35,928 bases of DNA from a virus: positions 1 to 35,928 of IMG/VR virus record IMGVR_UViG_3300014539_000001; one strand, given 5' to 3'. The notes below the pieces were generated by a model. That model searched no databases, had not been told where the DNA came from, and saw nothing but the letters and a program-made list of their open reading frames with translations. Below, piece by piece: positions 1 through 13,215 of the stretch. The translations under genes and the position numbers were made by a program. How positions within the stretch are numbered: the first letter of the stretch is position 1; each line of letters opens with the position of its first letter.

Positions 1-99
1 ATCCAGAATATACAGGGAAATACATTACAAATTCCCGCTAATTGTTCCTTATTAAATGCGTATTATGGAACAACAATAGATAGAGTGGAATTTTCCCAA
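1..99. repeat. Terminal direct repeat (copy 1): identical to 35830-35928. This is the overlap of a circularly closed assembly.
   Basis: Read directly: the 99 nt ATCCAGAATATACAGGG...GTGGAATTTTCCCAA occur at both window ends. The repeat lies inside one continuous reading frame (the tail fibre). Confidence 0.95.
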
Positions 100-1588: not shown

Positions 1589-1876
1589 ATGGCTGATGAA
1601 ACAATTCGTGTGTTATTTACAAAAGTAGACGAACTTACTGTTCAAATGACAAGAGTTGAAACACTTTTAGTAGAAACTGTAATTGCTAATCAAAAAAATA
1701 ACGCAGAGCGTCTTGACCGACACAGTAAAAAAATCGATGTTGCATTTGAGCGTATAAAAGAGCTTGAAAATGATAAAAAGCATATCATTTCTATTAAGAA
1801 CTTAGTTATTGGTTTTATAGGAGTAGTAGCTACCTGTACAAGCATTGTACTAGGTCTTACACAGCTAATGAGGTGA
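1589..1876 (+). CDS. xhlA: XhlA-like membrane protein (lysis-associated): coiled-coil N-terminus and a single C-terminal TM.
   Basis: 95 aa. The N-terminus is heptad-like and the C-terminus is LVIGFIGVVATCTSIVLGLTQLM. Lies just upstream of a small holin-like ORF and the endolysin. Confidence 0.6.
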   Translation: MADETIRVLFTKVDELTVQMTRVETLLVETVIANQKNNAERLDRHSKKIDVAFERIKELENDKKHIISIKNLVIGFIGVVATCTSIVLGLTQLMR

Positions 1877-1880
1877 TTGA

Positions 1881-2054
1881 ATGCAATACGAAAAATTAGA
1901 TATAGTAAATTTAGTAGTCGTTATCGGGCTTGTAATAGCTTTAATAACGGCTATTTTTTATGATAATGCAGAACTATCTACAACAATAAGTGCTGGCTTG
2001 TTGGGTTATCTAGGTGGGCTGGTACGAGTTAATAATAAAGATGTTACAAAATAG
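1881..2054 (+). CDS. Small two-TM holin-like protein (57 aa, below the ORF-track cutoff).
   Basis: My translation: MQYEKLDIVNLVVVIGLVIALITAIFYDNAELSTTISAGLLGYLGGLVRVNNKDVTK. SD AGGTGA precedes the ATG. Located in the lysis cluster. Confidence 0.5.
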   Translation: MQYEKLDIVNLVVVIGLVIALITAIFYDNAELSTTISAGLLGYLGGLVRVNNKDVTK

Positions 2055-2225
2055 GCACTTTTTGTAATGTGTATGCATAACATATTGCAAAAACAGCTAT
2101 TTTTATAAAACCTAGCACATTTCTAAAAGACAAAAACCTATAACCCGCACCGTTAAAGGATTTAATTGGAAGGTAATCGGTAGATTTAAGCTAAATTTTA
2201 GTTTATTTTTGGTTAAATTAAGAAA

Positions 2226-2249
2226 ACTGGTCGAATTCGACCAGTTTAA
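2226..2249. repeat. Perfect 24-bp palindrome AAACTGGTCGAATTCGACCAGTTT between the holin genes and the endolysin.
   Basis: Read directly. There is no U-tract beyond the stem, so it could be a hairpin/attenuator or a protein-binding site. Confidence 0.6.
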
Positions 2250-2267
2250 TAAAAGGAGTGGCAAATA

Positions 2268-2855
2268 ATGAAAGTAATAGATATTTCAGCTTGGCAAACA
2301 GATATTGACTGGCAGGCAGTAAAAGACGCTGGTATTGAAGGCGTGATTATTAAAATAGGTGAAGGTACTAATCTTGATGAAATGTTTTTTGAACACGTAA
2401 ATAATGCTGTAAATTATGGTTTAAAATATGGTGTATATTATTATGCTCATGCAAATTCTATAGATGAAGCAAGACGTGAAGCTTATACAGTAGACCAATG
2501 GCTTAAAACGTATATTCGTGGAGAAAATCCAGCATTAGGTATTTGGTATGACGCCGAAGATAATTCTATGCTTGAAGGTATAAATAACGTAGTTTATCCA
2601 ATAGCAAACTTTATTCATACAATGCGTGAAATAGGTTATAACTATGTAGGATTATACTCTTCTTATAACTGGCTTACTAATGTTATAGACCTTGAACCAT
2701 TACCAAAAGATGTTCCTATTTGGTCAGCCCAATATGGATACCATGAAAATAGTTTTGCTATTGAAAATCCTAATCGTATATGTCGTATTTGGCAATATAC
2801 AGATTGTGAACAAATAGGCGATATGAAGCTTGATTGTAACATTTACTATGAATAA
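2268..2855 (+). CDS. Endolysin, glycoside hydrolase family 25 muramidase.
   Basis: IDISAWQTDIDWQAVKDAGIEGVIIKIGEG...YGVYYYAHA is the GH25 (Cpl-1-type lysozyme) N-terminal signature. Strong SD AAAGGAG. Confidence 0.9.
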   Translation: MKVIDISAWQTDIDWQAVKDAGIEGVIIKIGEGTNLDEMFFEHVNNAVNYGLKYGVYYYAHANSIDEARREAYTVDQWLKTYIRGENPALGIWYDAEDNSMLEGINNVVYPIANFIHTMREIGYNYVGLYSSYNWLTNVIDLEPLPKDVPIWSAQYGYHENSFAIENPNRICRIWQYTDCEQIGDMKLDCNIYYE

Positions 2856-2886
2856 TAGAATAGATAATTTTTATTTAGTATTTAAT

Positions 2887-2948
2887 AAAAGTCCTCCATA
2901 TAATTGTTAATTTTTATTAATTATAAAGCTAACAAATGGAGGTCTTTT
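2887..2948 (+). terminator. Long hairpin plus T-run whose 3-prime arm contains the methyltransferase SD.
   Basis: AAAAG-T-CCTCCAT (2887-2899) pairs with ATGGAGG-T-CTTTT (2936-2948). The ATG is at 2950. It may act as the terminator of the lysis unit and/or mask the SD. Confidence 0.4.
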
Positions 2949-2949
2949 T

Positions 2950-3669
2950 ATGGATAAATTTTTAAATAAAATAATTTTAGGTGATAGTTTAGAAGTATTA
3001 AGACAAATACCAGATAACAGTGTGGATGCTGTTATTACAGATCCACCATATGCTAGTGGTGGGAAAACTACAGGAGAAAAAAGTGCATTACCATCAATAA
3101 AATATGCAAAAAATAAAGTAGTACACAGACCAGATTTTGTAGGTGATACGAAAGACAGCCGTTCCTGGTTACATTGGTGTGTATTATGGATTGGTGAATG
3201 CCATCGAATTTTAAAAGATAATGGTTATTTTTTAATGTTTAGCGATTGGCGACAATTACCAACAGCAACAGATGCAGTACAAATGGCGGATTTAATTTGG
3301 CGTGGTGTTGTAGCATGGGATAAAGGATTATGTGCTAGAGCCCCACATAAAGGCTATTTTAGGCATCAATGCGAGTATATAGTTTGGGGAACTAAGGGAA
3401 AATGTAAAAAAGCAGTCCATGCTGGTCCTTATGCTGGCTGTTTACGATACCAGGTAATGCAAAAGGATAAATTTCATTTAACAGGTAAACCAACGGCTTT
3501 GATGGAAGAACTTGTAAAAATAACTCCTGAAGGAGGTATAATTTTAGACCCATTTGTAGGCAGTGGTACTACTGCAGTAGCAGCTAAAAAACAGAATCGT
3601 AATTTTATTGGAATAGAAAAAACGGAAGTATATTATAATATTGCATTAAATCGTTTAAAGGAGATATAA
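2950..3669 (+). CDS. DNA methyltransferase, N6-adenine/N4-cytosine family (beta class). Orphan: no nuclease partner.
   Basis: Catalytic motif ITDPPY is near the N-terminus and the AdoMet motif DPFVGSGTTAVAA is near the C-terminus, as in PF01555-type enzymes. Confidence 0.9.
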   Translation: MDKFLNKIILGDSLEVLRQIPDNSVDAVITDPPYASGGKTTGEKSALPSIKYAKNKVVHRPDFVGDTKDSRSWLHWCVLWIGECHRILKDNGYFLMFSDWRQLPTATDAVQMADLIWRGVVAWDKGLCARAPHKGYFRHQCEYIVWGTKGKCKKAVHAGPYAGCLRYQVMQKDKFHLTGKPTALMEELVKITPEGGIILDPFVGSGTTAVAAKKQNRNFIGIEKTEVYYNIALNRLKEI

Positions 3670-3671
3670 CT

Positions 3672-3843
3672 ATGAAAATTTTAGTATATTCAAGAAATTT
3701 TTATACAATCTAACTGCCCAAATGAAAGCTTAAAAAATACTTTTAATCGTTTTGCTTTTATGCAAGGCAATCAAGTAATTTATTTTGATGATATTACTGT
3801 ACAAAATAGATGTGAAGCTATTATTACAGAAATAGAAGTTTAA
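3672..3843 (+). pseudogene. Small gene apparently disrupted by a frameshift at a T5 run.
   Basis: Strong SD AAGGAG precedes ATG 3672, but the ORF stops after 13 codons. The +1 frame stays open from 3685 to 3843. Removing one T from 3698-3702 would give a 57-aa ORF. Confidence 0.3.
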
Positions 3844-3854
3844 AGGATATATTT

Positions 3855-4208
3855 ATGTATGGATTATGGGAATTCTTACGGAAAAATGCTAAAAAAATTA
3901 TTATTTTTGGCGGTATTATTCTTCTGTGCTTGTTCATCGGTTTCATGTTCGGCGGAAGAGAAAACGTATCTAGTAACGGAGTCTCAATTAACGACGTTAG
4001 AACAGAACTTAGCAACGCTCAAGACGCAAAATCAGACATTGCAGACACAGCTTCAGATATCGCAGACACAAGTACAGGCATTGCAGAAACAGTCGGAAAT
4101 CTTGCAAACTCAATCGACACAGCTACAGGAGCAAGTAAACACTTTGATGCAATCATTGATGAATGCACAGGAATTATTGAGCAAATACGAAAACAACCAG
4201 CTGAATAA
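3855..4208 (+). CDS. N-terminally TM-anchored helical protein (117 aa). Candidate i-spanin-like partner of a dual-coding pair.
   Basis: SD AAAGGA sits 8 nt upstream. N-terminus KKIIIFGGIILLCLFIGFMFGG, then an Asp/Ala/Thr-rich helical region. Third-codon positions are almost free of G, like the other genes of the AT-rich arm. Confidence 0.5.
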   Translation: MYGLWEFLRKNAKKIIIFGGIILLCLFIGFMFGGRENVSSNGVSINDVRTELSNAQDAKSDIADTASDIADTSTGIAETVGNLANSIDTATGASKHFDAIIDECTGIIEQIRKQPAE

Positions 4209-4335
4209 TGAAGATGATTATATTATTGGTGTAGGTGTTAGTTCTGATAGTTTAGGTATGTATATATCTAAAAATAAAACATGGCTATATCTTGATGAAG
4301 ATACAGCCACGATAGGTTTACAATATAGATTTTAG
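3886..4335 (+). CDS. Exported coiled-coil lipoprotein-like protein with an OMP-type C-terminal beta-signal. It overlaps 3855-4208 in the +1 frame.
   Basis: Signal peptide MLKKLLFLAVLFFCAC, a long Q/L/T heptad region, and C-terminus TATIGLQYRF. The track ORF starts at 3859; ATG 3886 fits a signal peptide better. Confidence 0.6.
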   Translation: MLKKLLFLAVLFFCACSSVSCSAEEKTYLVTESQLTTLEQNLATLKTQNQTLQTQLQISQTQVQALQKQSEILQTQSTQLQEQVNTLMQSLMNAQELLSKYENNQLNNEDDYIIGVGVSSDSLGMYISKNKTWLYLDEDTATIGLQYRF

Positions 4336-4348
4336 TTTTCTTTATGAA

Positions 4349-4397
4349 AATAAGCCCTATTAATAGATAAAATGCTAATAATAGGGCTTATTTTTTT
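4349..4397 (+). terminator. Rho-independent terminator.
   Basis: AAGCCCTATTA (4352-4362) pairs with TAATAGGGCTT (4379-4389), followed by T7. Confidence 0.8.
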
Positions 4398-4416
4398 ATA
4401 TCTATTTGAAAATGTG

Positions 4417-4445
4417 TTGATAAAATCAAGATTAAATAATATAAT
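4417..4445 (+). promoter_or_regulatory. Near-consensus sigma70-type promoter.
   Basis: TTGATA (4417-4422), 17-nt spacer, TATAAT (4440-4445). Confidence 0.7.
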
Positions 4446-4499
4446 AAATATAGAAATTGAGGATTTGGTTAGTATTATTTTTTGTTAGAAGGTGATTAT

Positions 4500-4958
4500 A
4501 TGACGGATAAAGCAAAATGGGGAGGAAAAAGAGAGGGCGCAGGTCGCCCTCTAACAGCGGGAGAAGTAAGAAAACAAAGACAGTTAAGAGCCAGTGAAAA
4601 AGAATGGGAAATTATAAAAGAGTTTTCTAAAATCTTAAAAAAAGAACCTACAAAGGCTAATAAAATAATTAATGGAATTAAACGTGAAATAAGTGGATTA
4701 GATTTGTTAGATAATATGATAGATTATACAGGCAGTTTTACAGCAATAGAAGCTAGTTATTTAGCAACAATAGCTATAAAATATCAACTTGATTATTATG
4801 AAAACAATCCTGATGAAGCATATTATAACTATACACCTGATATCTTGAAAGAAACTTTAAAGAAAATAAATCCAGAGAATATGGCGGTTGATGAAGATAC
4901 TTTAACAATTAAAGAAATAATAAATAAAGTAGAAGCCTTAACAACATTTTTATATTAA
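4500..4958 (+). CDS. Putative ribbon-helix-helix (MobC/CopG-like N-terminus) DNA-binding protein with an unknown C-terminal domain.
   Basis: SD AAGGTGA precedes ATG 4500. GGKREGAGRP...RKQRQLRASEKEWEIIKEF resembles the GRP...R-beta-strand-helix N-terminus of RHH/MobC-type proteins. The C-terminal 100 aa were not recognised. Confidence 0.5.
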   Translation: MTDKAKWGGKREGAGRPLTAGEVRKQRQLRASEKEWEIIKEFSKILKKEPTKANKIINGIKREISGLDLLDNMIDYTGSFTAIEASYLATIAIKYQLDYYENNPDEAYYNYTPDILKETLKKINPENMAVDEDTLTIKEIINKVEALTTFLY

Positions 4959-4977
4959 TTTTATCTTCAGATGAAAA

Positions 4978-5005
4978 TAAAAAAGAGTAGCCATTTGGCT
5001 ACTCT
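4978..5005 (-). terminator. Hairpin whose U-tract is on the minus strand (a second, back-up terminator for leftward RNA).
   Basis: AGAGTAGCC (4984-4992) pairs with GGCTACTCT (4997-5005). An A-run lies immediately 5-prime on the + strand (a T-run after the stem in minus sense), and no T-run follows on the + strand. Confidence 0.5.
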
Positions 5006-5017
5006 AAGTTTATATAA

Positions 5018-5046
5018 TTGACAATTATTATGAATTAATATATCAT
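5018..5046 (+). promoter_or_regulatory. Near-consensus rightward promoter.
   Basis: TTGACA (5018-5023), 17-nt spacer, TATCAT (5041-5046). Confidence 0.65.
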
Positions 5047-5093
5047 AGAAGCGTAGATAATTTTCTTAACAATCGAATAAAAAGTTTTTAGAA

Positions 5094-5174
5094 ATAAAAA
5101 AGACCAAACGTGTTGGTAGCACGATTGGTCTTGCCGAACAACCTACCGCAAATAAGTTGTCCGAGTTACTTTCT
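5094..5174 (-). ncRNA. Candidate antisense small RNA of about 80 nt with two stem-loops.
   Basis: It starts about 7 nt downstream of a perfect consensus promoter (5209-5181). Stem-loop 1 spans 5135-5163 and has a G-U pair only in minus sense (A-C mismatch in plus sense). The terminator hairpin 5100-5132 is followed by a U-run only in minus sense. Confidence 0.65.
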
Positions 5175-5180
5175 AAACTC

Positions 5181-5209
5181 ATTATACTTATGTATTTGCG
5201 ATATGTCAA
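5181..5209 (-). promoter_or_regulatory. Perfect consensus sigma70 promoter on the minus strand.
   Basis: Minus-strand reading: TTGACA (5209-5204), exactly 17 nt, TATAAT (5186-5181). Confidence 0.8.
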
Positions 5210-5329
5210 CATATGATATCACAAAAATGATTTTAGGTAGGTTAAGTAGGCACATTATAGCATTATTCCATTTTTCCCATGTGGGAAAAATGATGAAAAA
5301 TGTTGTGATGTGTTTTTTAATATCTAAAA

Positions 5330-5581
5330 TCACCTGAAGGAATAAACTTCAGGAGCGTGCCAAGATGCTTATTCTTGGAGGGGAAACCACACTTGGCAAG
5401 GTGTATAAACTAGAATTGCAGAAAGTAATTCACCGTATCGTCAGCGGAGGCAGGGAAATCGGCGGGGCGTGCAAATATATTCTACTGTTTGCATTTACCT
5501 AAGAGGGCGGAATGTTGTTAAACTCCCTTAATAAGCCTAAGTAAATAAAAACTCATTAGAGCCGTTTAGACGGCTTTTTTT
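5330..5581 (+). ncRNA. Candidate structured RNA or leader. GC-richer, no ORF of 60 aa or more, ends in an intrinsic terminator. Family not recognised.
   Basis: Hairpin CCTGAAG/CTTCAGG (5333-5353). CCAAG can pair with either of two CTTGG copies (alternative pairings). G-rich tracts are present and the terminator is at 5560-5581. A 45-codon ORF (5365-5502, SD AGGAG 9 nt upstream) is an alternative reading. Confidence 0.4.
5560..5581 (+). terminator. Rho-independent terminator.
   Basis: AGCCGT-TTAG-ACGGCT followed by T7. Confidence 0.65.
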
Positions 5582-5589
5582 ATTGAGTA

Positions 5590-5900
5590 ATTATATTATA
5601 TGGTTAAAAGTAGACAACGGTGGTTAAACGCAACGTAAGTTGCAGACTGGGATTGTAGCAAATAAATAAGCTATAAGCCGTATTGGGATAATAGACGGAA
5701 ACATCTAGTGGTTGGGGCAATTAAGTAACCATAAATATCCTACCTGTATAAAAGCAGGGACTAGTAGAAAACTGGACTGGCAGACGCAAGAAAACCAGGC
5801 GTAAAAAATATAGTTATATCTTTAGTAAACTGCTAAAGGTATAACTATATCTAGAACATGGCTCCGCAATCCTCCCAAGCGTAATCTTTTTTAGGTTAGA
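5590..5900 (+). ncRNA. Second ORF-free, GC-richer structured segment upstream of the SAP-domain gene. Includes a 17-bp stem at 5809-5849.
   Basis: No ORF of 60 aa or more on either strand. Hairpins: GCAAC-GTAA-GTTGC (5630-5643) and TATAGTTATATCTTTAG/CTAAAGGTATAACTATA (5809-5849). The latter has a U-G wobble only in plus sense. Function unknown. Confidence 0.3.
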
Positions 5901-5964
5901 AGTAAAGCCAACATTAGTGTCTAGTTTAAATAAATTTATATACACCAAGAAAGAAGGTGAATAG

Positions 5965-6153
5965 ATGCCAACAATAAAAGAGATAAAAGCTATAGCAAAA
6001 AACAGAGCAGTAGGATTACCGAAGAAAGCTAAAAAAGCTAATATGATACATATACTGCAGGAACAAGAAGGGAATATACCTTGTTATGCAACTAAGAAAT
6101 GTAATGATGATGTATGTCTTTGGTATAAAGATTGCCAAAAAGCTATAAAATAA
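5965..6153 (+). CDS. Small SAP/Rho_N-like (helix-extension-helix) protein with a four-Cys C-terminus.
   Basis: TIKEIKAIAKNRAVGLPKKAKKANMIHIL matches the Rho-N/SAP motif. The C-terminus is CYATKKCNDDVCLWYKDC. SD GAAGGTGA. Confidence 0.6.
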   Translation: MPTIKEIKAIAKNRAVGLPKKAKKANMIHILQEQEGNIPCYATKKCNDDVCLWYKDCQKAIK

Positions 6154-6230
6154 TATCGTTTGTGAGCTGTTTAAATTTTTATTAGATATAAATATATTAA
6201 TTTAAATTTATAATGGCTTATATAGGCGAT

Positions 6231-6283
6231 AAAAAAAGTCCTTGAGAAGTGATGAACTTTGCTCAAGGACTTTCTTGTTTTTT
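6231..6283. terminator. Bidirectional terminator between convergent genes.
   Basis: AGTCCTTGAG (6237-6246) pairs with CTCAAGGACT (6262-6271). An A-run lies upstream and a T-run downstream. Confidence 0.8.
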
Positions 6284-6297
6284 ATATATTTATAAGC

Positions 6298-6573
6298 TTA
6301 TTTGGATAAGTCTTTTAATATTAATTCATTTACATAGTTATTAAAACTGCGACCTTCACTAATTGCTTTTAGTTTAGCTTGCTCATATGCAGTTGGATAA
6401 ATGGTTAGCTGTACGCGTTTAGTTAATTTTTCTTCATTTTTACTTATTACTTCACGTACATTATATTTAGCTTCAGATATTTCTTCTGTTGGAGTTGTTG
6501 TATTGTTATTTTCATTTGTATCAAAAAAGAATTCTGCAGCATTACTAAAATCTTTTTGTTCCATTAAAATCAT
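6298..6573 (-). CDS. Ribbon-helix-helix partition adaptor (ParG/omega-like), translationally coupled to parA.
   Basis: The C-terminus KRVQLTIYPTAYEQAKLKAISEGRSFNNYVNELI shows the RHH pattern. Its ATG overlaps the parA stop (ATGA). Confidence 0.65.
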   Translation of the reverse strand: MILMEQKDFSNAAEFFFDTNENNNTTTPTEEISEAKYNVREVISKNEEKLTKRVQLTIYPTAYEQAKLKAISEGRSFNNYVNELILKDLSK

Positions 6574-7334
6574 CCTTCATTTATAATTTCATTTATTAAA
6601 TTTTTATAATCTCTGCCAGCTGTAGAATAGCGAGCATAAGAAAAAATATCCATTTGTTTGGTTTGTGCTTCACGTATAGCAATACTTTCACGAATAGCTG
6701 TATTAAAAACTTTTGTTCCAATTTTTGTAGCTATATCTGTTAAACTTTTACGTAGTGATTTGCCCATCACAGTGCGGGAATTAAATCTAGTTATCAAAAT
6801 TCCCATTATTTTTAAGTTATCATTACTATTTTTTTTTACAGCATTAATAGTATCTGTGAGTAACCTAATTCCCTGGATAGCAAATATATCGGATGTAGTG
6901 GTTATTATTACATAATCGCTGGCGGTTAAAGCATTTATTGTTACTATACCCAATGCGGGTGGTGTATCAATTATTACATAATCATATATAGGTTCAAGTT
7001 TTTGCAGAATATATTTTAAGATACATTCTGCCCCTTTTTTATTTTGGAGAGTAACAAGATGTTGTGAACCAGCAATAAAATCATTGGTAATAGCTTCATT
7101 GATAGGAATTTTCCCAGTAAGTACGTCATAAATGTTGTTTTTAGACTTTGCATTTAGAGCAAATGTTAAATTACATTGTGAGTCTAAATCTAGTAATAGA
7201 ACTTTTTTAGCTTGTAAACGTAGACCACAAGCTATATTATGTGCGGTGGTTGTTTTTCCAACACCACCTTTTTGGTTTATTATGGATATTACTTGCATTA
7301 ATATCACTCCCTTGAATATATGTGGTTTATACAT
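6570..7334 (-). CDS. parA: ParA/Soj-family partition ATPase (small, type Ib-like).
   Basis: Deviant Walker A QKGGVGKTTTA, then LLLDLDSQCN and IIDTPPALG. Confidence 0.92.
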   Translation of the reverse strand: MYKPHIFKGVILMQVISIINQKGGVGKTTTAHNIACGLRLQAKKVLLLDLDSQCNLTFALNAKSKNNIYDVLTGKIPINEAITNDFIAGSQHLVTLQNKKGAECILKYILQKLEPIYDYVIIDTPPALGIVTINALTASDYVIITTTSDIFAIQGIRLLTDTINAVKKNSNDNLKIMGILITRFNSRTVMGKSLRKSLTDIATKIGTKVFNTAIRESIAIREAQTKQMDIFSYARYSTAGRDYKNLINEIINEG

Positions 7335-7344
7335 ATATTATACA

Positions 7345-7490
7345 TTATAAAAATGTAAAAATAAAGTATATTAAATGTATATATAATATTTAATAGATAT
7401 ATAATATATTATTTAAATGTATATATAACATTAAAATGATATTATTAATACATTAATTTAATATTATATAAATGTATTAAATACATTAAA
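7345..7490. promoter_or_regulatory. Iteron array upstream of parA: candidate centromere (parS-like) and par promoter region.
   Basis: AAATGTATATATAA occurs perfectly at 7373-7386 and 7415-7428 (42 bp apart). The AATGTAT core also occurs at 7448-7454 (inverted), 7470-7476 and 7480-7486 (inverted), forming the palindrome AATGTATTAAATACATT. Confidence 0.55.
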
Positions 7491-7751
7491 CAACAATATA
7501 TAGTGTTTTTATCACAAAAAATCATAGTCAATCACATTTTGTCAAAAATCCATTGAAGGTGTACAAAAAAAGTAATGTAAGAAAATGTTAGATACTATAT
7601 ATTGTGGTTTTAATATTCAAATTTTAAATTCTACTTCCTATTTTTTAGCAAATATGAAGTAGAATTTATTTTGTTGTATGGTAATGGGAATATAATATAT
7701 AATAGATACGTTGCTAACCTCCAAACTGGCAACAGGAGGGAGGTGTTCTGA

Positions 7752-7841
7752 ATGGAAAGTTTAATATTATCTTTAATGGTATCTATCGTGGCAAGTGTAA
7801 TTGCGCATTATATTTGCAAATGGATTGATGGATACAAATAG
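7752..7841 (+). CDS. Type I toxin-like hydrophobic peptide (29 aa), Fst/par-like.
   Basis: My translation: MESLILSLMVSIVASVIAHYICKWIDGYK. SD GGAGGT (7739-7744) can pair with the anti-SD ACCTCC (7717-7722). A convergent sRNA is complementary to codons 3-8. Confidence 0.65.
   Translation: MESLILSLMVSIVASVIAHYICKWIDGYK
7759..7774. repeat. Direct repeat GTTTAATATTATCTTT, copy 1 (inside the toxin ORF 5-prime end).
   Basis: 16/16 identical to 7989-8004. Confidence 0.9.
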
Positions 7842-7889
7842 CAACAATCCTGACCGCTTTAGCATTGGCGGTATATAAATTTAGTGCAA

Positions 7890-7930
7890 GAGGAACATGT
7901 TGTTGCAGCAACATGTTCCTCGTTTTTTTT
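7890..7930 (+). terminator. Toxin mRNA terminator with loop UUGCAG.
   Basis: GAGGAACATGTTG pairs with CAACATGTTCCTC (13 bp), followed by T8. Confidence 0.85.
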
Positions 7931-7932
7931 AT

Positions 7933-8008
7933 AAAAAAATACCGCGAAGTTGCAGCTTCACGGTATTTTTTGTCCTGAACGGAATTATGTTTAATATTAT
8001 CTTTTGTA
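7933..8008 (-). ncRNA. Candidate antitoxin sRNA of about 75 nt, convergent to the toxin gene.
   Basis: It starts just downstream of the extended -10 promoter 8041-8014. Its 5-prime end carries AAAGAUAAUAUUAAAC, complementary to 7759-7774. The terminator hairpin 7939-7966 has a G-U pair only in minus sense. Its loop GCUGCAAC is complementary to GUUGCAGC in the toxin terminator loop (7902-7909). Confidence 0.65.
7989..8004. repeat. Direct repeat GTTTAATATTATCTTT, copy 2 (inside the sRNA gene, read antisense).
   Basis: 16/16 identical to 7759-7774. Confidence 0.9.
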
Positions 8009-8013
8009 TTTCT

Positions 8014-8041
8014 ATTATATCATAAAAATACATATTTTCAA
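8014..8041 (-). promoter_or_regulatory. Strong minus-strand promoter with an extended -10.
   Basis: Minus-strand reading: TTGAAA (8041-8036), 16-nt spacer ending in TG-A, TATAAT (8019-8014). Confidence 0.7.
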
Positions 8042-8179
8042 ATTAATTGATAATTTTTATAGCTAAAAGACTACAAAAATACAATTTTTTTATTTGAAGT
8101 GTTATAAGGAGAGGCAATCTGAGTAATGTATTAATGTGGAGGTAATCCACATTTTAATACAGAAAGGAGGACCTCAATT

Positions 8180-8305
8180 ATGAAAGCCTTAATAATTTCA
8201 GCTATTGTGAAATTTATAGAAGCCTTATTATTGGATTTGGCAGTAAATGGAGCAATGGACTATTTAAATGAAATTCTTAGTTACCTAAATGGAATTTTAT
8301 TTTAA
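8180..8305 (+). CDS. 41-aa amphipathic peptide of unknown function.
   Basis: Strong SD AAAGGAGG sits 8 nt before the ATG. My translation: MKALIISAIVKFIEALLLDLAVNGAMDYLNEILSYLNGILF. An extended -10 TGTTATAAG lies at 8100-8108 and a 5-prime UTR hairpin at about 8128-8160. Confidence 0.45.
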   Translation: MKALIISAIVKFIEALLLDLAVNGAMDYLNEILSYLNGILF

Positions 8306-8331
8306 TATTGTTTCACGTGAAACTAAAAATT

Positions 8332-8970
8332 TCAGAAAAATCTAGCTCCATAGATGAAAAGGCAAAAACAGCTTATTACTATACTAGCTACACAAGGCAT
8401 AAAATATTTAGTTTTGTATAGACGATAGAAGAATATTAGCGTCAGTATTGGTACAAAGAAAAGTGGATAGATTATACCTAAAAGAGTAGCAGGCATTTTA
8501 TCTATAATGGCAACAGTTATAAGTGGCAAGATATTTATTATAAATCTATACTTACGTAGTTTTAGACTATAATTATACATAAGAAAAATTCCTAAAGGAT
8601 AGAATAATATAAACATAGTTAAAATAAACATATCTTCTTTGTAGAAAGTATCTTGTTTTATATTAGCAAGATGTTTTTTATGTTCTGCTTTGTGTGCATC
8701 ACCAAAAGCTGTTAACTTTTCAGCTACTATATTAGTTTGTTTATTATTTGTAGGTTCAATATTTTGTGACGCTTGTTTACTATCTAATTTTTTAGAATAA
8801 GATATGCCTGTACCAGGAATACTGGTAGTAAAACGTGTACCACTAGAGCCTATTGTAAGTTTTGCACCACGTGGTCCTATAGTGGTGCTTACTTTTTTTT
8901 TACTAATATTTAATCGAACGCCAGGAGCAACCTTAAAAGATTTATGAAATCTAAACCCCATAATATTCAC
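8332..8970 (-). CDS. DUF4236-domain protein with a multi-TM C-terminal half.
   Basis: The N-terminus GFRFHKSFKVAPGVRLNISKKKVSTTIGPRGAKLTIGSSGTRFTTSIPGTGISYS matches the DUF4236 pattern. About 4 predicted TM helices lie in the C-terminal half. Confidence 0.7.
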   Translation of the reverse strand: MNIMGFRFHKSFKVAPGVRLNISKKKVSTTIGPRGAKLTIGSSGTRFTTSIPGTGISYSKKLDSKQASQNIEPTNNKQTNIVAEKLTAFGDAHKAEHKKHLANIKQDTFYKEDMFILTMFILFYPLGIFLMYNYSLKLRKYRFIINILPLITVAIIDKMPATLLGIIYPLFFVPILTLIFFYRLYKTKYFMPCVASIVISCFCLFIYGARFF

Positions 8971-9032
8971 CAGCTTTTCATATATTTATAATATAATTAT
9001 AACATATAATTAATGTTATTTAAATGTAAAAT

Positions 9033-9073
9033 AGCTGTATAATAAACATTGTTTAAACATTTATTATACAGCT
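9033..9073 (-). terminator. Terminator hairpin after the 9079-9627 gene.
   Basis: AGCTGTATAATAAA pairs with TTTATTATACAGCT (14 bp). It is paralogous to the 9736-9778 hairpin (shared CTGTATAAT...ATTATACAG). Confidence 0.6.
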
Positions 9074-9078
9074 TTATT

Positions 9079-9627
9079 TTAAGGATTACATTTTTTACAA
9101 GGAACATAACCAGAATTCACAGCTTCATCACGACTGGCAAAAGTAACATAATTAGCAGATTTTATTTTATCTACATAACTGCAACTAGACTTATGAAATT
9201 TAGAAGTGCTGGCATTTCCAACATATGTTCTAGTAACTTGTGGTGCAGGTTCAACTGCTTCTTGTTGTACTGGAGGCGTAGAGGATGGAACTTGAGTTTG
9301 AGTTGTTACTTCTTCAGATGATGTGGATTGATTATTTGAAGATATTGACTCAGTGTTAGATGTTTCTTTTATATTAGAAGATATATCAGAGGAAGCAGTA
9401 TTTTCTTTCGTGGTAGTTGTTTCTATTGTTGGATTAGATGATGTAGTAGTTTTATTAGGATTATTGTTATCAGGTATATTTAGACAACTGATAAAGAAAA
9501 TAATTAATCCAATATAAAGAGTATTTTTCCATTTGCGTTTGCTTTTCTTTCTAATGAAGGAATATAACAATCCAAGTATAGCAATAATAATAGCTAAAAA
9601 TGAAAGTGAAAGAAATAAGAATACCAT
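9079..9627 (-). CDS. Membrane-anchored protein with a Ser/Thr-rich linker and a C-terminal Ada-like Cys-rich (zinc) domain.
   Basis: The N-terminus has two hydrophobic segments flanking IRKKSKRKW. The C-terminus YVGNASTSKFHKSSCSYVDKIKSANYVTFASRDEAVNSGYVPCKKCNP resembles the Ada N-terminal metal-binding fold. Confidence 0.65.
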   Translation of the reverse strand: MVFLFLSLSFLAIIIAILGLLYSFIRKKSKRKWKNTLYIGLIIFFISCLNIPDNNNPNKTTTSSNPTIETTTTKENTASSDISSNIKETSNTESISSNNQSTSSEEVTTQTQVPSSTPPVQQEAVEPAPQVTRTYVGNASTSKFHKSSCSYVDKIKSANYVTFASRDEAVNSGYVPCKKCNP

Positions 9628-9735
9628 GCTTTATTCTCCTTTTTTGATTATTTGTAATATGATTATATCATAATTATAAATATGTTTTTTTGATTGAAAT
9701 ATAAGTTGTGAAATATGTGTATTTTAGATGTAAAA

Positions 9736-9778
9736 AAACTGTATAATAAATATTTATATAACATAAATTATACAGTTT
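9736..9778 (-). terminator. Bidirectional-looking terminator after the 9800-10486 gene.
   Basis: AAACTGTATAAT pairs with ATTATACAGTTT, flanked by an A-run and a T-run. Confidence 0.7.
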
Positions 9779-9799
9779 TTTATTACAATATTAAATTTT

Positions 9800-10486
9800 T
9801 TATAATTTATTAAAATCTATGCCTGATTTAGAAAAAACTTCTATCAAATTAGTCGAAGCTTTTATAACTAAATCTTTAGAAGCATTTAATTTTTTTGTAG
9901 CGATTTCTATTTTTGTTTTATTTAGATTTCCACTATTGATACCATCTCTTAATGTCATGCAAGCACCACGTCTTTCTTGTGCTGCTTGTTGTAAACTCAT
10001 TACAGCGTTATCAATAGCTTGTTTTTGTTCATCATTTAAATTTTGAGGAGTTTCAATATCATTTAATTTATGGACAACATTATCCATATTGCTATAGACT
10101 AAATCAAAATTATTAGCTGCGTCCTTTGGTGATATTGTACCATTTTGTATTTGCTGAATTGTATCCAAAAATGGAGCAAATCCGTTATCAAATTCTGTAC
10201 TTACTGCATGAAATTTTTTATACCAATCTAATATAATTTTTTGTTGTTCTTCTTGTGTTAATTCTTTTGGTTGTTCAGTTTGTTCGGTAACTGCTGGTGG
10301 TGTAGATGTAGAATTAGTTTCTTTTTTCTCATCAGTTGTTGCTATAGATACGCATAAAATAATAATAGATAATACAATACCTATAGTCCATTTCTTTTTA
10401 GGTTTTTTCTTTATTGCAGAATAAATTAAACCAATGATACATACGAAAAATATTAAAATAGATAAAAGACCAAATAAAGCACTCAT
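9800..10486 (-). CDS. Membrane-anchored protein with a helical ectodomain, unknown function. Its N-terminal anchor is paralogous to that of 9079-9627.
   Basis: MSALFGLLSILIFFVCIIGLIYSAIKKKPKKKWTIGIVLSIIILCV compares with MVFLFLSLSFLAIIIAILGLLYSFIRKKSKRKWKNTLYIGLIIFFISC. Confidence 0.65.
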   Translation of the reverse strand: MSALFGLLSILIFFVCIIGLIYSAIKKKPKKKWTIGIVLSIIILCVSIATTDEKKETNSTSTPPAVTEQTEQPKELTQEEQQKIILDWYKKFHAVSTEFDNGFAPFLDTIQQIQNGTISPKDAANNFDLVYSNMDNVVHKLNDIETPQNLNDEQKQAIDNAVMSLQQAAQERRGACMTLRDGINSGNLNKTKIEIATKKLNASKDLVIKASTNLIEVFSKSGIDFNKL

Positions 10487-10649
10487 ATTGATACTCCTTT
10501 GTAAAAATTTTTGTAATATATAAATTCTATATGATATAAGTTTTTCCCTTTATTTATTAATATACATATATATATAACATATAAATAATGTTTAATATAC
10601 ATTTTATAAATGTTTTTATTATGTATATATTATGTTGTTTATACATTAA

Positions 10650-12324: not shown

Positions 12325-13215
12325 ATGGCATTAGTACAACAAATGGTATATGGTAAAAACTTCATAGATGTGTCTAGGTATCAAAGTGGACGTATTGGTA
12401 AAAAAATATTAAATGGTCCAGCGTTAGGGAAAACACCATTAAGGCAGTTGCGTTATCAAGATAAAAAATCCGAGCGTAATTGTAGATATAAACTCAATAT
12501 GAATTTTGGTGGAGGTGATTTGTTTCTAACGCTTAGTTATCCACCATATGAGTTGATTGATTTTGCTACAGCAAGAAAGAATATAAATACCTTTTTGGAT
12601 ACTGTAAGAAAAATATATAAGCGCAATGGTAAAAAACTTAAGTATATTTTTGTGGCAGGTCTAACTAAAAGAGGTATGATACATTTCCACATTGTACTTA
12701 ATAAATTTGATACTGATGTATTAACTAAAGCATGGCAAAAAATAGTAGGTACAGAAAATTTTAAGTATCCACGTGTAACCATAAGACATTTAGATTACAG
12801 CGGAGAATATAAAAAACTTGCTAGTTATTTAATAAAAAATAGTAGGGAACAGTTTTATGGTAAGGAAAAGGTGCATAAGAAACGTTTTTGTGCATCTAAA
12901 AATCTTATTATGCCATTAGTTGTAAAAAAAATACTTAAGTATAACAGATTTTGGAGAAATATACCTAAAGCTTTAACAGGTTATACAATAGATAAAAATT
13001 CTATATATGATGGTTATGGTTGGGCAGATAATGGCGGACATTATGAGTGCTGCAGAGTGCAAAGATATACCATGTATAAAACAGATTGCACTAATTGGAA
13101 CTTGTATAAAAGTAAATACCGAAAGATATTTACAGATGATGATATACCAGAAATTATTGAAGAATGGACTGAGGAAAGCCATGTTAAGAAAAGAAGCAAA
13201 AGAGGTAGTTTGTAA
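12325..13215 (+). CDS. rep: HUH-superfamily rolling-circle replication initiator (Rep).
   Basis: The three RCR motifs occur in order: LFLTLSY (motif 1), MIHFHIVLN (HUH motif 2) and LASYLIKN (catalytic Tyr motif 3). Confidence 0.75.
   Translation: MALVQQMVYGKNFIDVSRYQSGRIGKKILNGPALGKTPLRQLRYQDKKSERNCRYKLNMNFGGGDLFLTLSYPPYELIDFATARKNINTFLDTVRKIYKRNGKKLKYIFVAGLTKRGMIHFHIVLNKFDTDVLTKAWQKIVGTENFKYPRVTIRHLDYSGEYKKLASYLIKNSREQFYGKEKVHKKRFCASKNLIMPLVVKKILKYNRFWRNIPKALTGYTIDKNSIYDGYGWADNGGHYECCRVQRYTMYKTDCTNWNLYKSKYRKIFTDDDIPEIIEEWTEESHVKKRSKRGSL

What the first reader, a model, noticed from the sequence alone, without database searches (positions are those of the whole stretch)
5018..5209. Face-to-face consensus promoters producing a roughly 80-nt antisense sRNA against the 5-prime part of a long rightward RNA
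Seen:
- The rightward promoter is TTGACA-17-TATCAT (5018-5046).
- About 160 bp away and pointing leftward is a perfect TTGACA-17-TATAAT (5209-5181).
- The leftward transcript would run about 80 nt through a stem-loop (5135-5163). The imperfect pair in this stem is G-U in minus sense but A-C in plus sense.
- It ends at a hairpin (5100-5132) whose U-run exists only in minus sense, with a second minus-oriented hairpin at 4984-5005.
- No convincing ORF lies here. The listed 5110-5337 ORF has a GTG start and no SD.

Established: this geometry and RNA size recall three kinds of system:
- countertranscript control in plasmids (ColE1 RNAI/RNAII, pT181/pIP501 attenuation, prgQ/prgX);
- RNA immunity in phage-plasmids (P1 c4, P4 CI);
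- convergent-promoter switches (186, P2).

Inference: this is an RNA-based copy-number, immunity or anti-repressor control for the element. I cannot place it in a known RNA family.
Basis: partly seen in the sequence, partly recalled or inferred. Interest (0 to 1): 0.7.

Follow-up and report, generated by a model that had tools for sequence, protein, structure and literature searches.

The report
Antisense-controlled RNA module, likely plasmid replicon
A small antisense RNA made from a perfect promoter sits at the front of a conserved, protein-free, roughly 0.9-kb folded RNA shared by phage-plasmids and plasmids of gut Megamonas-type bacteria, and this RNA pair is probably how these elements replicate and set their copy number without a replication protein.

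Summary
Both face-to-face promoters exist, and their hexamers are invariant in 43 distinct relatives while the spacers vary. The ~81-nt leftward RNA (5174 to about 5094) folds into a stem-loop plus a terminator. Covariation supports both, and only in the minus sense: stem-loop 1 is 100% paired in minus sense and 64% in plus sense.

The rightward RNA is not an mRNA. It is a structured non-coding RNA of about 0.85-0.9 kb with a leader, an internal terminator T1, domain 1, a second terminator T2 and domain 2. Predicted pairs with compensatory changes number 21 of 61 (domain 1) and 29 of 67 (domain 2). No Rfam family matches it.

The module (5015-5960) travels with a 62-aa HeH-like gene and parA/parG. 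It occurs in this circular 35.8-kb phage-plasmid, in small mobilizable plasmids and in a 46-kb Megamonas funiformis conjugative plasmid. No Rep protein was found in those plasmids. A close phage relative carries an integrase at this position instead.

Best reading (0.5): a Rep-independent, RNA-based replicon, with the antisense RNA setting copy number and incompatibility. This function is inferred and was not demonstrated. How the antisense RNA acts is unresolved.

The parts
4984..5005 (.). Bidirectional terminator hairpin of the upstream gene. It insulates the module and could back up termination of the antisense RNA. It lies outside the conserved block.
   Evidence: One search finds it on both strands. 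Homology with all relatives starts only at 5015/5016.
5018..5046 (+). P(+), TTGACA-17-TATCAT. Predicted start of the long RNA at about 5053.
   Evidence: The -35 is invariant in 43 distinct relatives; the -10 varies as TATCAT/TATTAT/TATAAT/TATGAT. The left border of the conserved cassette coincides with the -35.
5181..5209 (-). P(-), perfect TTGACA-17-TATAAT. Predicted start of the antisense RNA at about 5174.
   Evidence: Both hexamers are invariant, and the spacer sequence varies at a constant 17 nt. A 12/12 promoter sits at the equivalent place in the plasmid clade and in the Megamonas plasmid.
5094..5174 (-). Antisense sRNA of about 81 nt, complementary to positions about +42 to +122 of the long RNA.
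   Evidence: Fold z = -4.9. Covariation on 17 sequences. There are 29 or more distinct variants.
5134..5164 (-). Stem-loop 1 of the antisense RNA: 14 bp, loop 5148-5150. Its 3' arm, GGUAGGUUGUUCGG, is invariant. The loop is hypervariable.
   Evidence: 100% paired in minus sense against 64% in plus sense; 36% of cells are G-U. Loop entropy is 1.62 bits, the highest of all regions.
5096..5132 (-). Terminator hairpin of the antisense RNA (5100-5132) plus U6 (5101-5096). The 6-7-nt loop is a probable kissing loop.
   Evidence: Seven pairs have compensatory double changes. The U-run is invariant. The hairpin occurs in both orientations among relatives. A YUNR motif sits at the 5' side of the loop in one of the two complementary RNAs in all 22 variants.
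5133..5147 (+). Target arm GCCGAACAACCUACC in the long RNA. It pairs with the antisense RNA and, within the long RNA, with 5236-5251.
   Evidence: Invariant. The long-range helix appears in minimum-energy folds of representatives of all three clades. An analogous helix with a different sequence exists in the Megamonas plasmid.
5236..5251 (+). Segment III, GGUAGGUUAAGUAGGC. It is an internal mimic of the antisense 3' arm. It can pair either with the target arm or with the U-run and 3' flank of T1.
   Evidence: GGTAGG is invariant.
5251..5318 (+). T1: a long plus-sense hairpin (5251-5312) followed by U6 (5313-5318). It is an internal terminator or attenuator of the long RNA.
   Evidence: 21 distinct variants, 31-64 nt long, always followed by U6-7. 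Plus sense is more stable in 17 of 21 (mean -20.3 against -13.3 kcal/mol). Matched two-sided deletions occur. The scan calls it a terminator in the plasmid clade.
5333..5583 (+). Domain 1 of the long RNA, a multi-stem structured RNA that ends in the canonical terminator T2 (5558-5577 plus U-run). The 45-aa ORF at 5365-5502 inside it is not a gene.
   Evidence: RNAalifold on 34 distinct sequences gives 61 pairs, 21 with compensatory double changes. The ORF is frame-shifted in relatives, while the stems are compensated. T2.
5598..5890 (+). Domain 2 of the long RNA, closed by long-range helices and including hairpin 5808-5850.
   Evidence: RNAalifold on 37 distinct sequences gives 67 pairs, 29 compensatory, with many invariant plus-sense G-U pairs. 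Hairpin (I19).
5965..6153 (+). Gene for a 62-aa HeH/LEM-like, Cys4 small protein. It is linked to the module and to parA/parG in every element, but its position varies.
   Evidence: The ORF is conserved with amino-acid substitutions. Homologues P0001-P0007. It lies on the other side of parA in the plasmid clade. The Pfam HeH match is weak only.
6298..7334 (-). Partition genes, convergent with the module: a ParG/HicB-like 91-aa protein (6298-6573) and ParA (6570-7334).
   Evidence: The same synteny is seen in relatives.

Best explanation
Window 5015-5960 is an RNA-only maintenance module: most likely the plasmid-state replicon of this phage-plasmid, with a built-in antisense copy-number and incompatibility control.

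Shown at sequence level:
- P(+) drives a non-coding structured RNA made of a leader, T1, domain 1, T2 and domain 2 (about 0.85-0.9 kb if both terminators are read through).
- P(-), 121 bp downstream and facing it, drives an ~81-nt antisense RNA with a stem-loop and a terminator hairpin. It is fully complementary to +42..+122 of the long RNA.

Inferred:
- The long RNA acts in cis as the initiator or pre-primer of plasmid replication, as ColE1 RNA II or the non-coding RNA origins of extrachromosomal mycobacteriophage prophages do.
- The antisense RNA is made constitutively, so its level follows gene dosage. It first contacts the long RNA through its variable loops (a YUNR kissing loop).
- It then pairs with the invariant target arm and displaces the internal long-range helix 5133-5147 / 5236-5251.
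- This lowers the yield of full-length functional RNA. Possible routes are stronger termination at T1, misfolding, duplex cleavage, or promoter collision.
- T1 and T2 keep productive transcripts rare, as a low-copy, parA-partitioned element would need.
- Loop divergence creates new incompatibility specificities.
For: 1. The antisense RNA is real at sequence level. Searches show that the -35 of P(+) and both hexamers of P(-) never vary, that spacers are variable, and that covariation holds only in minus sense.
2. The long RNA is a structured non-coding RNA. Domain 1 has 21 of 61 compensatory pairs and domain 2 has 29 of 67. The fold z-score is -8.2. The 45-aa ORF is not conserved. No Rfam family matches.
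3. The window is a complete circular 35.8-kb genome (99-bp terminal repeat). It has ParA and a cI-like repressor, and no integrase among the ORFs scanned.
4. Phage L004 is 93% identical across window 1870-4656. It carries a tyrosine integrase where this phage carries the module, the HeH gene and parAB.
5. The same module occurs in non-phage elements:
   - L046, 11.3-kb circular: MobA/MobL, ParA/ParG, resolvase, HipA-like.
   - L056, 14.2 kb, and L057.
   - The 46-kb conjugative plasmid of Megamonas funiformis JCM 14723. Domain 1 matches at E 1.5e-61 and domain 2 at 5e-43, in a 2.3-kb gene-free gap divergent from parA.
   No Rep protein was found in these elements: Pfam and NCBIfam on L046, Pfam only on L056, L057 and the Megamonas plasmid.
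6. The only things common to all carriers are the RNA module, the HeH gene and parA/parG.
7. The antisense loops are the most variable positions among otherwise near-identical elements. This is the pattern known for incompatibility determinants (background knowledge, ColE1 and R1).
8. Precedents:
   - A ~600-bp non-coding transcribed region next to parABS is necessary and sufficient for replication of non-RepA mycobacteriophage prophages (PMC7157519).
   - A gene-free 1-kb region holding the ARRPOF RNA is sufficient for replication of Fusobacterium plasmid pKH9 (PMC5737381).
Against: - No expression or replication data exist. Every functional step is inferred.
- The phage-plasmids also encode a rolling-circle-type Rep (12325-13215). 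It co-occurs with the module in six contigs and could serve the prophage.
- 'No Rep found' rests on profile searches. Small unknown ORFs and the HeH protein remain untested as initiators.
- Two canonical intrinsic terminators inside a supposed pre-primer are unusual.
- T1 forms in minimum-energy folds whether or not the target is blocked, so no clean switch is visible.
- No DnaA box was found. GC skew only tracks gene orientation.
- In L037 no ParA gene lies among the genes called next to the module; in L024 the genes beside it are cut by the contig end.
Confidence: 0.5

Rival explanations
1. The pair is a regulatory or maintenance RNA system of another kind, carried by the plasmid backbone and not an origin. 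Examples would be control of partition or HeH expression, exclusion or immunity between related elements, or a stability or anti-defence RNA. The antisense RNA would be its repressor.
For: The module always travels with parA/parG and the HeH gene. Loop hypervariability also fits immunity or exclusion specificity, as in P1/P7 c4 (background knowledge). The phage has its own Rep. T1 and T2 would give discrete RNAs of about 265 and 530 nt that could act in trans.
Against: It leaves the plasmids with no identified replicon. No second target for the invariant arm exists in the window: the only other match has 3 mismatches, as chance allows. The integrase swap implies that the cassette supplies replication as well as partition.
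Confidence: 0.22
2. The whole 0.9-kb RNA is an attenuated leader of the 62-aa HeH gene. The antisense RNA and the two terminators would then tune HeH expression, as in pIP501/pT181-type attenuation or prgQ/prgX.
For: In the phage-plasmid clades the conserved block runs from P(+) to just past the HeH gene. No sigma-70-like promoter of 9/12 or better lies on the plus strand between 5330 and 5965. T1 lies about 90 nt past the target, the geometry of an attenuator.
Against: In the plasmid clade and in the Megamonas plasmid the HeH gene sits elsewhere. There the module ends in its own hairpin, or another gene follows it. In L027 and L029-L035 another gene is inserted between them. Domains 1 and 2 show far more covariation than a leader needs.
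Confidence: 0.08
3. Domains 1 and 2 act as single-stranded DNA. They would be a lagging-strand origin (sso/ssi), used after rolling-circle replication of the phage or after conjugative entry of the plasmids.
For: The carriers are phages with a rolling-circle-type Rep and Mob or conjugative plasmids; both pass through single-stranded DNA. Weinberg et al. note that plasmid-associated motifs might act as single-stranded DNA (PMC5737381).
Against: Conserved double-stranded promoters and three canonical terminators with invariant U-runs frame the structures in the same sense. Many pairs are invariant G-U, which would be weak G-T pairs in DNA. At 850 nt it is several times a typical sso (background knowledge). 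An sso needs no antisense RNA. It would also leave the plasmids without a replicon.
Confidence: 0.08
4. It is a type I toxin-antitoxin locus, or simply chance promoter-like and hairpin sequences in AT-rich DNA.
For: The geometry resembles par of pAD1 or hok/sok. AT-rich DNA gives many promoter-like hits (19 found against 12.3 expected).
Against: No small hydrophobic ORF is conserved in the sense RNA. The covariation, the invariant hexamers and the 118-call statistics exclude chance. A separate Fst-like toxin ORF lies at 7752-7841.
Confidence: 0.02

Closest known systems
ColE1-type replicons (RNA I / RNA II, with Rom)
   Same: A constitutive consensus promoter inside the transcribed region, about 110-120 nt from the start of a long non-coding RNA of 550 nt or more, makes a ~80-108-nt fully complementary stem-loop RNA. 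Its loops vary between relatives. A long-range alternative pairing exists in the target RNA. No Rep protein was found on the plasmids that carry it. A small (~62-aa) protein gene lies nearby.
   Different: There are two hairpins, not three. The antisense 3' end lies about 40 nt inside the long RNA, not at its start. Two intrinsic terminators sit inside the long RNA. The host is Bacillota (Negativicutes), not Enterobacteria. There is no similarity to Rfam RNAI. The element is low-copy and parA-partitioned. The HeH protein is unrelated to Rom. Primer function, RNase H and Pol I dependence are untested.
RNA-based origins of extrachromosomal (non-RepA, parABS) mycobacteriophage prophages (Wetzel et al. 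2020, PMC7157519)
   Same: A gene-free transcribed region of 0.6-0.9 kb lies beside the partition genes of a phage-plasmid with no plasmid-type Rep. The cassette is exchangeable with an integrase cassette in close relatives. In the Megamonas plasmid the RNA is even divergent from parA, as in those phages.
   Different: The host phylum and sequence are different. No antisense RNA is described in the sections of that paper read here. Here the module is also shared with conjugative and mobilizable plasmids. Replication function was shown there by experiment and is only inferred here.
Countertranscript attenuation in pT181 / pIP501 / pAMbeta1
   Same: In a Gram-positive-type system, a short antisense RNA from a strong promoter targets the leader of the essential replication transcript. 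An intrinsic terminator (T1) lies shortly downstream of the target.
   Different: No rep ORF follows. No clear preemptor-terminator alternative is seen: T1 folds in both states. There is no Rfam ctRNA match.
ARRPOF RNA region of Fusobacterium plasmid pKH9 (Weinberg et al. 2017, PMC5737381)
   Same: A large structured RNA motif lies inside a gene-free ~1-kb region that suffices for plasmid replication, in an AT-rich anaerobe.
   Different: There is no match to the Rfam model. No antisense partner is mentioned in the passage read.
P1 c4 / P4 CI immunity RNAs, P22 sar, and convergent-promoter switches (pCF10 prgQ/prgX, 186, P2)
   Same: Small structured RNAs, or face-to-face promoters, on temperate elements. 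A few loop bases set the specificity (P1 against P7).
   Different: c4 and CI are processed from the same strand as their targets. No anti-repressor, pheromone or lysis-lysogeny gene lies downstream. The module also occurs on non-phage plasmids. No Rfam C4 match was found.

Membership tests
ColE1 RNA I / RNA II | A short RNA from a convergent promoter, fully complementary to the 5' part of a long non-coding (pre-primer) RNA. | tested here: met
   Promoters, terminator and covariation. The long RNA is non-coding and structured. This is sequence-level evidence only.
ColE1 RNA I / RNA II | Homology to RNA I (Rfam RF00106); three stem-loops. | tested here: not met
   No Rfam match at gathering score or at E up to 10. 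There are two hairpins.
ColE1 RNA I / RNA II | Replication independent of any plasmid-encoded Rep protein. | tested here: inconclusive
   No Rep was found in the complete plasmids L046 and L056 or in the Megamonas plasmid. Unknown small ORFs remain, and the phage carries a rolling-circle-type Rep.
ColE1 RNA I / RNA II | RNA II forms a persistent hybrid at the origin, is cut by RNase H and is extended by Pol I. | not testable with these tools
   This needs mapping of the RNA-DNA junction and host mutants.
pT181 / pIP501 / pAMbeta1 countertranscript attenuation | The target lies in the leader of a rep mRNA. | tested here: not met
   No rep ORF lies downstream. The next gene is a 62-aa HeH-like protein, which is absent from that position in the plasmid clade.
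pT181 / pIP501 / pAMbeta1 countertranscript attenuation | An intrinsic terminator just downstream of the target, whose formation depends on antisense binding (a preemptor alternative). | tested here: inconclusive
   T1 is present and conserved. It forms in minimum-energy folds with or without the target blocked.
P1 c4 / P4 CI immunity RNA | The RNA is processed from the same transcript it regulates; it controls an anti-repressor or the early operon; it matches Rfam C4. | tested here: not met
   It has its own convergent promoter. No anti-repressor lies downstream. There is no C4 match. The module is present on non-phage plasmids.
Type I toxin-antitoxin (hok/sok, par of pAD1) | A conserved small hydrophobic toxin ORF in the sense RNA. 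| tested here: not met
   No conserved ORF exists in 5053-5960.
RNA-based prophage origins (mycobacteriophage non-RepA type) | A gene-free transcribed region adjacent to the partition genes, taking the place of an integrase cassette. | tested here: met
   Synteny with parA. An integrase sits at the same position in L004. Transcription is inferred from the promoters only.
RNA-based prophage origins (mycobacteriophage non-RepA type) | [quoted passage not shown] | not testable with these tools
   This needs cloning and deletion experiments.
ARRPOF / GEBRO / other Rfam plasmid-associated RNAs | A match to the covariance model. | tested here: not met
   Searches list none of them.
Single-strand origins (sso/ssi) | An orientation-specific structured single-stranded DNA with the conserved RSB and CS-6 motifs, priming the lagging strand. 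| not tested
   I did not search for the motifs. The RNA-type signals (promoters, U-run terminators, invariant G-U pairs) argue against it.

The most novel reading that the evidence does not exclude
A Rep-protein-independent replicon built from a ~0.9-kb structured RNA and an ~80-nt kissing-loop antisense RNA. It would be shared as an exchangeable cassette, together with parA/parG and a tiny HeH protein, by conjugative plasmids, mobilizable plasmids and phage-plasmids of gut Megamonas (Negativicutes). It would be the first such RNA replicon in Bacillota. The size and covariation of the large folded domains suggest they do more than prime: they might recruit host replication factors or open the origin themselves.
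Probability: 0.4. Interest if true: 0.85.

Novelty: new variant of a known kind. Interest (0 to 1): 0.72.

Why it matters
- **Scarcity of examples.** Replication without a Rep protein is textbook for ColE1 in enterobacteria and hardly documented elsewhere. Known cases are mycobacteriophage prophages and pKH9. A conserved RNA module shared by phages and plasmids of an abundant but genetically intractable gut genus would extend that principle to Bacillota.
- **A new RNA family.** It would add a large structured RNA family, absent from Rfam, with an unusually clear antisense partner.
- **Co-residence.** Loop-encoded incompatibility types would explain how many related elements coexist.
- **Practical use.** It would give a minimal, protein-free replicon for building vectors. 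A cultured strain, M. funiformis JCM 14723, carries a related copy of the module.
- **Annotation.** 'Rep-less' plasmids and phage-plasmids in metagenomes may be complete, and their replicons may lie in their 'gene-free' gaps.

Tried and rejected
- **Rfam.** At gathering score on the whole window and at E up to 10 on 4900-6000, only noise appeared (miRNA, rli36, FtrA and similar, far below threshold). No tRNA or tmRNA was found.
- **blastn.** Window 4400-6300 found nothing in the phage collection. In the plasmid collection it hit only the HeH gene of the Megamonas plasmid. Domains 1 and 2 were found there only later, with nhmmer profiles.
- **Genome scan.** The first scan, with a clade-1 domain-2 21-mer, gave 0 hits.
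- **45-aa ORF 5365-5502.** It has an AGGAG site, and its only difference from the closest relative is synonymous. I rejected it because of frameshifts and compensated stems in L009 and others and no Pfam hit.
- **ORF 5110-5337.** Rejected because of matched two-sided indels in T1.
- **Simple anti-terminator model** (target arm against the T1 arm). Not supported by the folds.
- **Trans target** of the invariant arm within the phage. None found beyond chance.
- **DnaA boxes and GC skew** as origin markers. Uninformative.
- **A hidden universal Rep among plasmid ORFs.** The 177-aa and 168-aa proteins are not shared by all carriers.
- **TnpB omega RNA, retron or bridge RNA readings.** No TnpB/IscB or reverse-transcriptase domain was hit in any protein scanned beside the module, and the only TnpB seen lies 3 kb away on the Megamonas plasmid.
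- **Rep in the integrase-bearing relative.** The viral-contig scan returned only module-bearing contigs, so this test was inconclusive.
Full report
**1. The observation**

P(+) TTGACA-17-TATCAT lies at 5018-5046 (11/12) and P(-) TTGACA-17-TATAAT at 5209-5181 (12/12). In this AT-rich DNA loose promoter-like hits are common (19 found against 12.3 expected), but near-perfect ones are not. The whole 35.9-kb window holds five sites with at most one mismatch at 17-nt spacing. The expectation is 0.92, and 0 of 100 shuffles reach five. Two of the five are this facing pair, and P(-) is the only perfect one.

From P(-) the transcript would start near 5174. It runs through stem-loop 1 (5134-5164) and ends at hairpin 5100-5132 followed by U6, about 81 nt in all. 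The 86-nt stretch folds at -29.3 kcal/mol, z = -4.9. Stem-loop 1 has five G-U pairs in the window copy, all of which would be A-C on the other strand. No known RNA family matches, at Rfam gathering scores or at E up to 10.

**2. Relatives and what they show about the antisense RNA**

The region has no match in the phage collection, and only the neighbouring small gene matches in the plasmid collection. I found relatives in four ways:
- exact motifs in viral contigs;
- homologues of the adjacent 62-aa protein and their contigs;
- a two-block pattern in genomes, giving one MAG contig;
- the same pattern in human-gut metagenomes, giving 28 contigs.

In every relative, similarity to the window begins at 5015/5016, the -35 of P(+).

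Across 43 distinct leaders, the -35 of P(+) and both hexamers of P(-) never vary. The -10 of P(+) varies between TATCAT, TATTAT, TATAAT and TATGAT (0.32 bits). Promoter spacers vary at constant length, and the U-runs are invariant. The most variable spot is the loop of stem-loop 1 (1.62 bits), followed by the apex of the next hairpin and the terminator loop. The target arm and the P(-) -10 were part of the pattern used for 29 loci. They were already invariant in the 20 distinct sequences obtained by other routes.

On 17 distinct antisense sequences, 98% of cells are paired.
- Stem-loop 1 is 100% paired. Seven of its pairs change on one side only, always through G-U.
- The terminator hairpin has seven pairs with compensatory double changes.
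- Of 500 shuffles, none reaches the observed percentage paired, covariation score or number of doubly changed cells. The count of pairs changed on both sides is reached by 48 shuffles, and the count of further pair types by all 500.
- Slid registers fall to 28-53% paired.

The same pairs read in plus sense are only 64% paired in stem-loop 1. The leftward RNA is therefore the selected structure, and its target in the rightward RNA is kept comparatively open.

The terminator hairpin occurs in both orientations among relatives, as an exact reverse complement including the loop. In all 22 variants its 6-7-nt loop starts with a YUNR motif (UUGG, CUGG, UUAG or CUAG) in exactly one of the two complementary RNAs. 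The two cases scored 'neither' are an offset artefact of my loop definition. From background knowledge (Franch et al. 1999), YUNR U-turn loops speed up antisense-target recognition.

**3. The long rightward RNA**

It is not an mRNA. The 45-aa ORF at 5365-5502 looks plausible in the window, but it is frame-shifted in relatives while the stems it overlaps are compensated.

From P(+) the RNA contains, in order:
1. **A leader** holding the antisense target.
2. **Hairpin T1** (5251-5312) followed by an invariant U6-7. There are 21 distinct variants of 31-64 nt. Relatives show matched two-sided deletions. The plus sense is more stable in 17 of 21. In the plasmid clade T1 is a plain 12-bp terminator that the scanner calls as such.
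3. **Domain 1** (5333-5583), ending in the canonical terminator T2. RNAalifold on 34 distinct sequences gives 61 pairs, 21 with compensatory double changes.
4. **Domain 2** (5598 to about 5890). On 37 sequences it gives 67 pairs, 29 compensatory, with many invariant plus-sense G-U pairs.

No conserved promoter lies between T2 and domain 2, and no plus-strand site of 9/12 or better lies between 5330 and 5965. Domain 2 is therefore probably reached by read-through; this is inference.

In minimum-energy folds of six sequences drawn from all three clades, the invariant target arm GCCGAACAACCUACC (5133-5147) pairs with GGUAGGUU..GGC (5236-5251) just before T1. The invariant 3' arm of the antisense RNA, GGUAGGUUGUUCGGC, is a near copy of that internal partner. 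The antisense RNA would therefore compete with an intramolecular helix.

The Megamonas plasmid has the same logic with a different sequence. Six ACUACUAAAG repeats lie under its antisense RNA, and one CUUUAGUAG lies just past its P(-).

**4. Context**

The window carries a 99-bp terminal direct repeat, so it is a complete circular genome of 35.8 kb. Its genes include:
- holin, endolysin and a spanin-like gene, and a DNA methylase;
- ParA with a small ParG/HicB-like partner;
- a cI-like repressor;
- a rolling-circle-type Rep in the early operon;
- terminase and tail genes.

No integrase appeared among the ORFs scanned. This is a phage-plasmid.

A phage 93% identical over window 1870-4656 (L004) has a tyrosine integrase at the place where this genome has the RNA module, the small HeH-like gene and parAB.

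The same RNA module occurs in elements that are not phages:
- **L057** carries a resolvase, ParA/ParG and a MobA/MobL relaxase.
- **L046** is a complete 11.3-kb circle (55-bp terminal repeat). It has a relaxase, ParA/ParG, a resolvase and a HipA-like gene, and no Rep by Pfam or NCBIfam.
- **L056** (14.2 kb, 37-bp terminal repeat) also has no Rep by Pfam.

Profiles built from domains 1 and 2 hit the 46-kb conjugative plasmid of Megamonas funiformis JCM 14723 (NZ_CP048628.1) at E 1.5e-61 and 5e-43. The hit lies in a 2.3-kb unannotated gap, divergent from a parA gene that crosses the record start. A perfect TTGACA-17-TATAAT and a homologous terminator hairpin sit at the antisense position. That plasmid has no annotated Rep, and none appeared among its larger hypothetical proteins.

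The small plasmids share a relaxase 89% identical with the Megamonas plasmid. The only items common to all carriers are the RNA module, the HeH-like protein and ParA/ParG. The probable host is therefore Megamonas or a relative. That fits the spanin-like gene, since Negativicutes are diderm, although the one MAG hit is binned as 'uncultured Bacilli'.

In the plasmid clade the HeH gene lies on the other side of parA, and the module ends in its own hairpin. The RNA is therefore not merely the leader of that gene.

**5. Most likely mechanism**

An element that is partitioned by ParA, stands where relatives carry an integrase, and is shared with plasmids in which no Rep was found needs a replicon. 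The RNA module is the only conserved candidate.

I therefore read it as an RNA-based, Rep-independent replicon (confidence 0.5). The long RNA would be the cis-acting initiator or pre-primer. The antisense RNA would be a dosage-dependent inhibitor whose variable loops set incompatibility. T1 and T2 would keep productive transcripts rare.

Two precedents exist. Non-coding transcribed regions next to parABS are necessary and sufficient for replication of non-RepA mycobacteriophage prophages (PMC7157519). A gene-free region containing ARRPOF suffices for replication of pKH9 (PMC5737381).

- **Shown:** promoters, terminators, strand-specific structures, covariation, distribution and synteny.
- **Inferred:** transcription itself, the replication role, and the mode of inhibition.

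The mode of inhibition is open. T1 folds whether or not the target is blocked. Segment III can pair either with the target arm or with the U-run and flank of T1. Candidates for the mode of action are enhanced termination, misfolding of the leader, cleavage of the 81-bp duplex, and collision between the facing promoters.

**6. Rivals**

- **Another backbone regulatory or exclusion RNA (0.22).** This fits the loop variability and the phage's own Rep, which co-occurs with the module in six contigs. It leaves the plasmids without a replicon.
- **An attenuated leader of the HeH gene (0.08).** The plasmid clade contradicts it.
- **A single-stranded DNA origin for domains 1 and 2 (0.08).** This would suit rolling-circle phages and Mob plasmids. 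It is hard to reconcile with the conserved promoters, the U-run terminators, the invariant G-U pairs and the antisense RNA.
- **Type I toxin-antitoxin, or chance (0.02).** These are excluded by the lack of a conserved peptide and by the covariation.

**7. Comparison and novelty**

It works most like ColE1 RNA I/RNA II. It shares the terminator-after-target geometry of pT181 and pIP501. It is a member of neither. There is no model match, it has two hairpins instead of three, no rep ORF follows, and its long RNA contains internal terminators.

I found no description of it in the literature searched. I rate it a new variant of a known kind: a cis-antisense control joined to a large, previously undescribed structured RNA family. 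A cultured host strain is available for testing.

Noticed in passing
window 7752-7841 (+), with hairpins at 7893-7920 and 7934-7971: A 29-aa hydrophobic ORF (MESLILSLMVSIVASVIAHYICKWIDGYK) has a strong Shine-Dalgarno site and is followed by back-to-back terminators. It looks like an Fst-type type I toxin-antitoxin locus. The Megamonas plasmid has an annotated Fst toxin.
   Followed up: partly
window 7360-7500: AT-rich direct and inverted repeats (AATGTATATATAA...) lie just upstream of parA. They are probably the centromere (parS) and operator.
   Followed up: no
window 1-99 and 35830-35928: A 99-bp terminal direct repeat shows that the window is a complete circular assembly of about 35.8 kb.
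   Followed up: yes
L004 4576-5691 (-), against window 4482-10500: A phage 93% identical across the lysis and methylase region carries a tyrosine integrase where this genome carries the RNA module, the HeH gene, parAB and the toxin-antitoxin locus. This is an integrase-for-plasmid-cassette swap.
   Followed up: yes
window 5100-5132 against L008 3328-3360: The antisense terminator hairpin is present as its exact reverse complement, loop included, in some relatives. The whole hairpin has flipped, which moves the YUNR loop motif from the target RNA to the antisense RNA.
   Followed up: partly
L070 (NZ_CP048628.1) 45300-45380: The leader of the Megamonas plasmid holds six tandem ~11-nt repeats (ACTACTAAAAG) under its longer (~175-nt) antisense RNA. 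One complementary copy lies past the antisense promoter. The repeats are iteron-like, and whether they act as DNA or RNA is unknown.
   Followed up: partly
window 5965-6153 (+); L070 5981-6190: A 62-69-aa HeH/LEM-like protein with four conserved cysteines accompanies parA/parG and the RNA module in phage-plasmids and plasmids. In the Megamonas plasmid it directly follows a resolvase gene. Its function is unknown.
   Followed up: partly
window 3859-4335 (+): A spanin-like coiled-coil gene sits in the lysis cassette. It suggests a diderm host, which fits Megamonas (Negativicutes).
   Followed up: partly
window 8180-8305 (+): A 41-aa ORF (MKALIISAIVKFIEALLLDLAVNGAMDYLNEILSYLNGILF) has a strong AAAGGAGG site. 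A 41-aa gene is called at the equivalent place in relatives.
   Followed up: no
L027 and L029-L035, about 2101-2484: In some close relatives a 119-127-aa ORF with its own upstream signals is inserted between domain 2 and the HeH gene. This shows that the two are separable.
   Followed up: partly
window 12325-13215 (+): A rolling-circle-type replication initiator (PF23343, phrog_3584) sits in the early operon. It co-occurs with the RNA module in six phage-plasmid contigs.
   Followed up: partly
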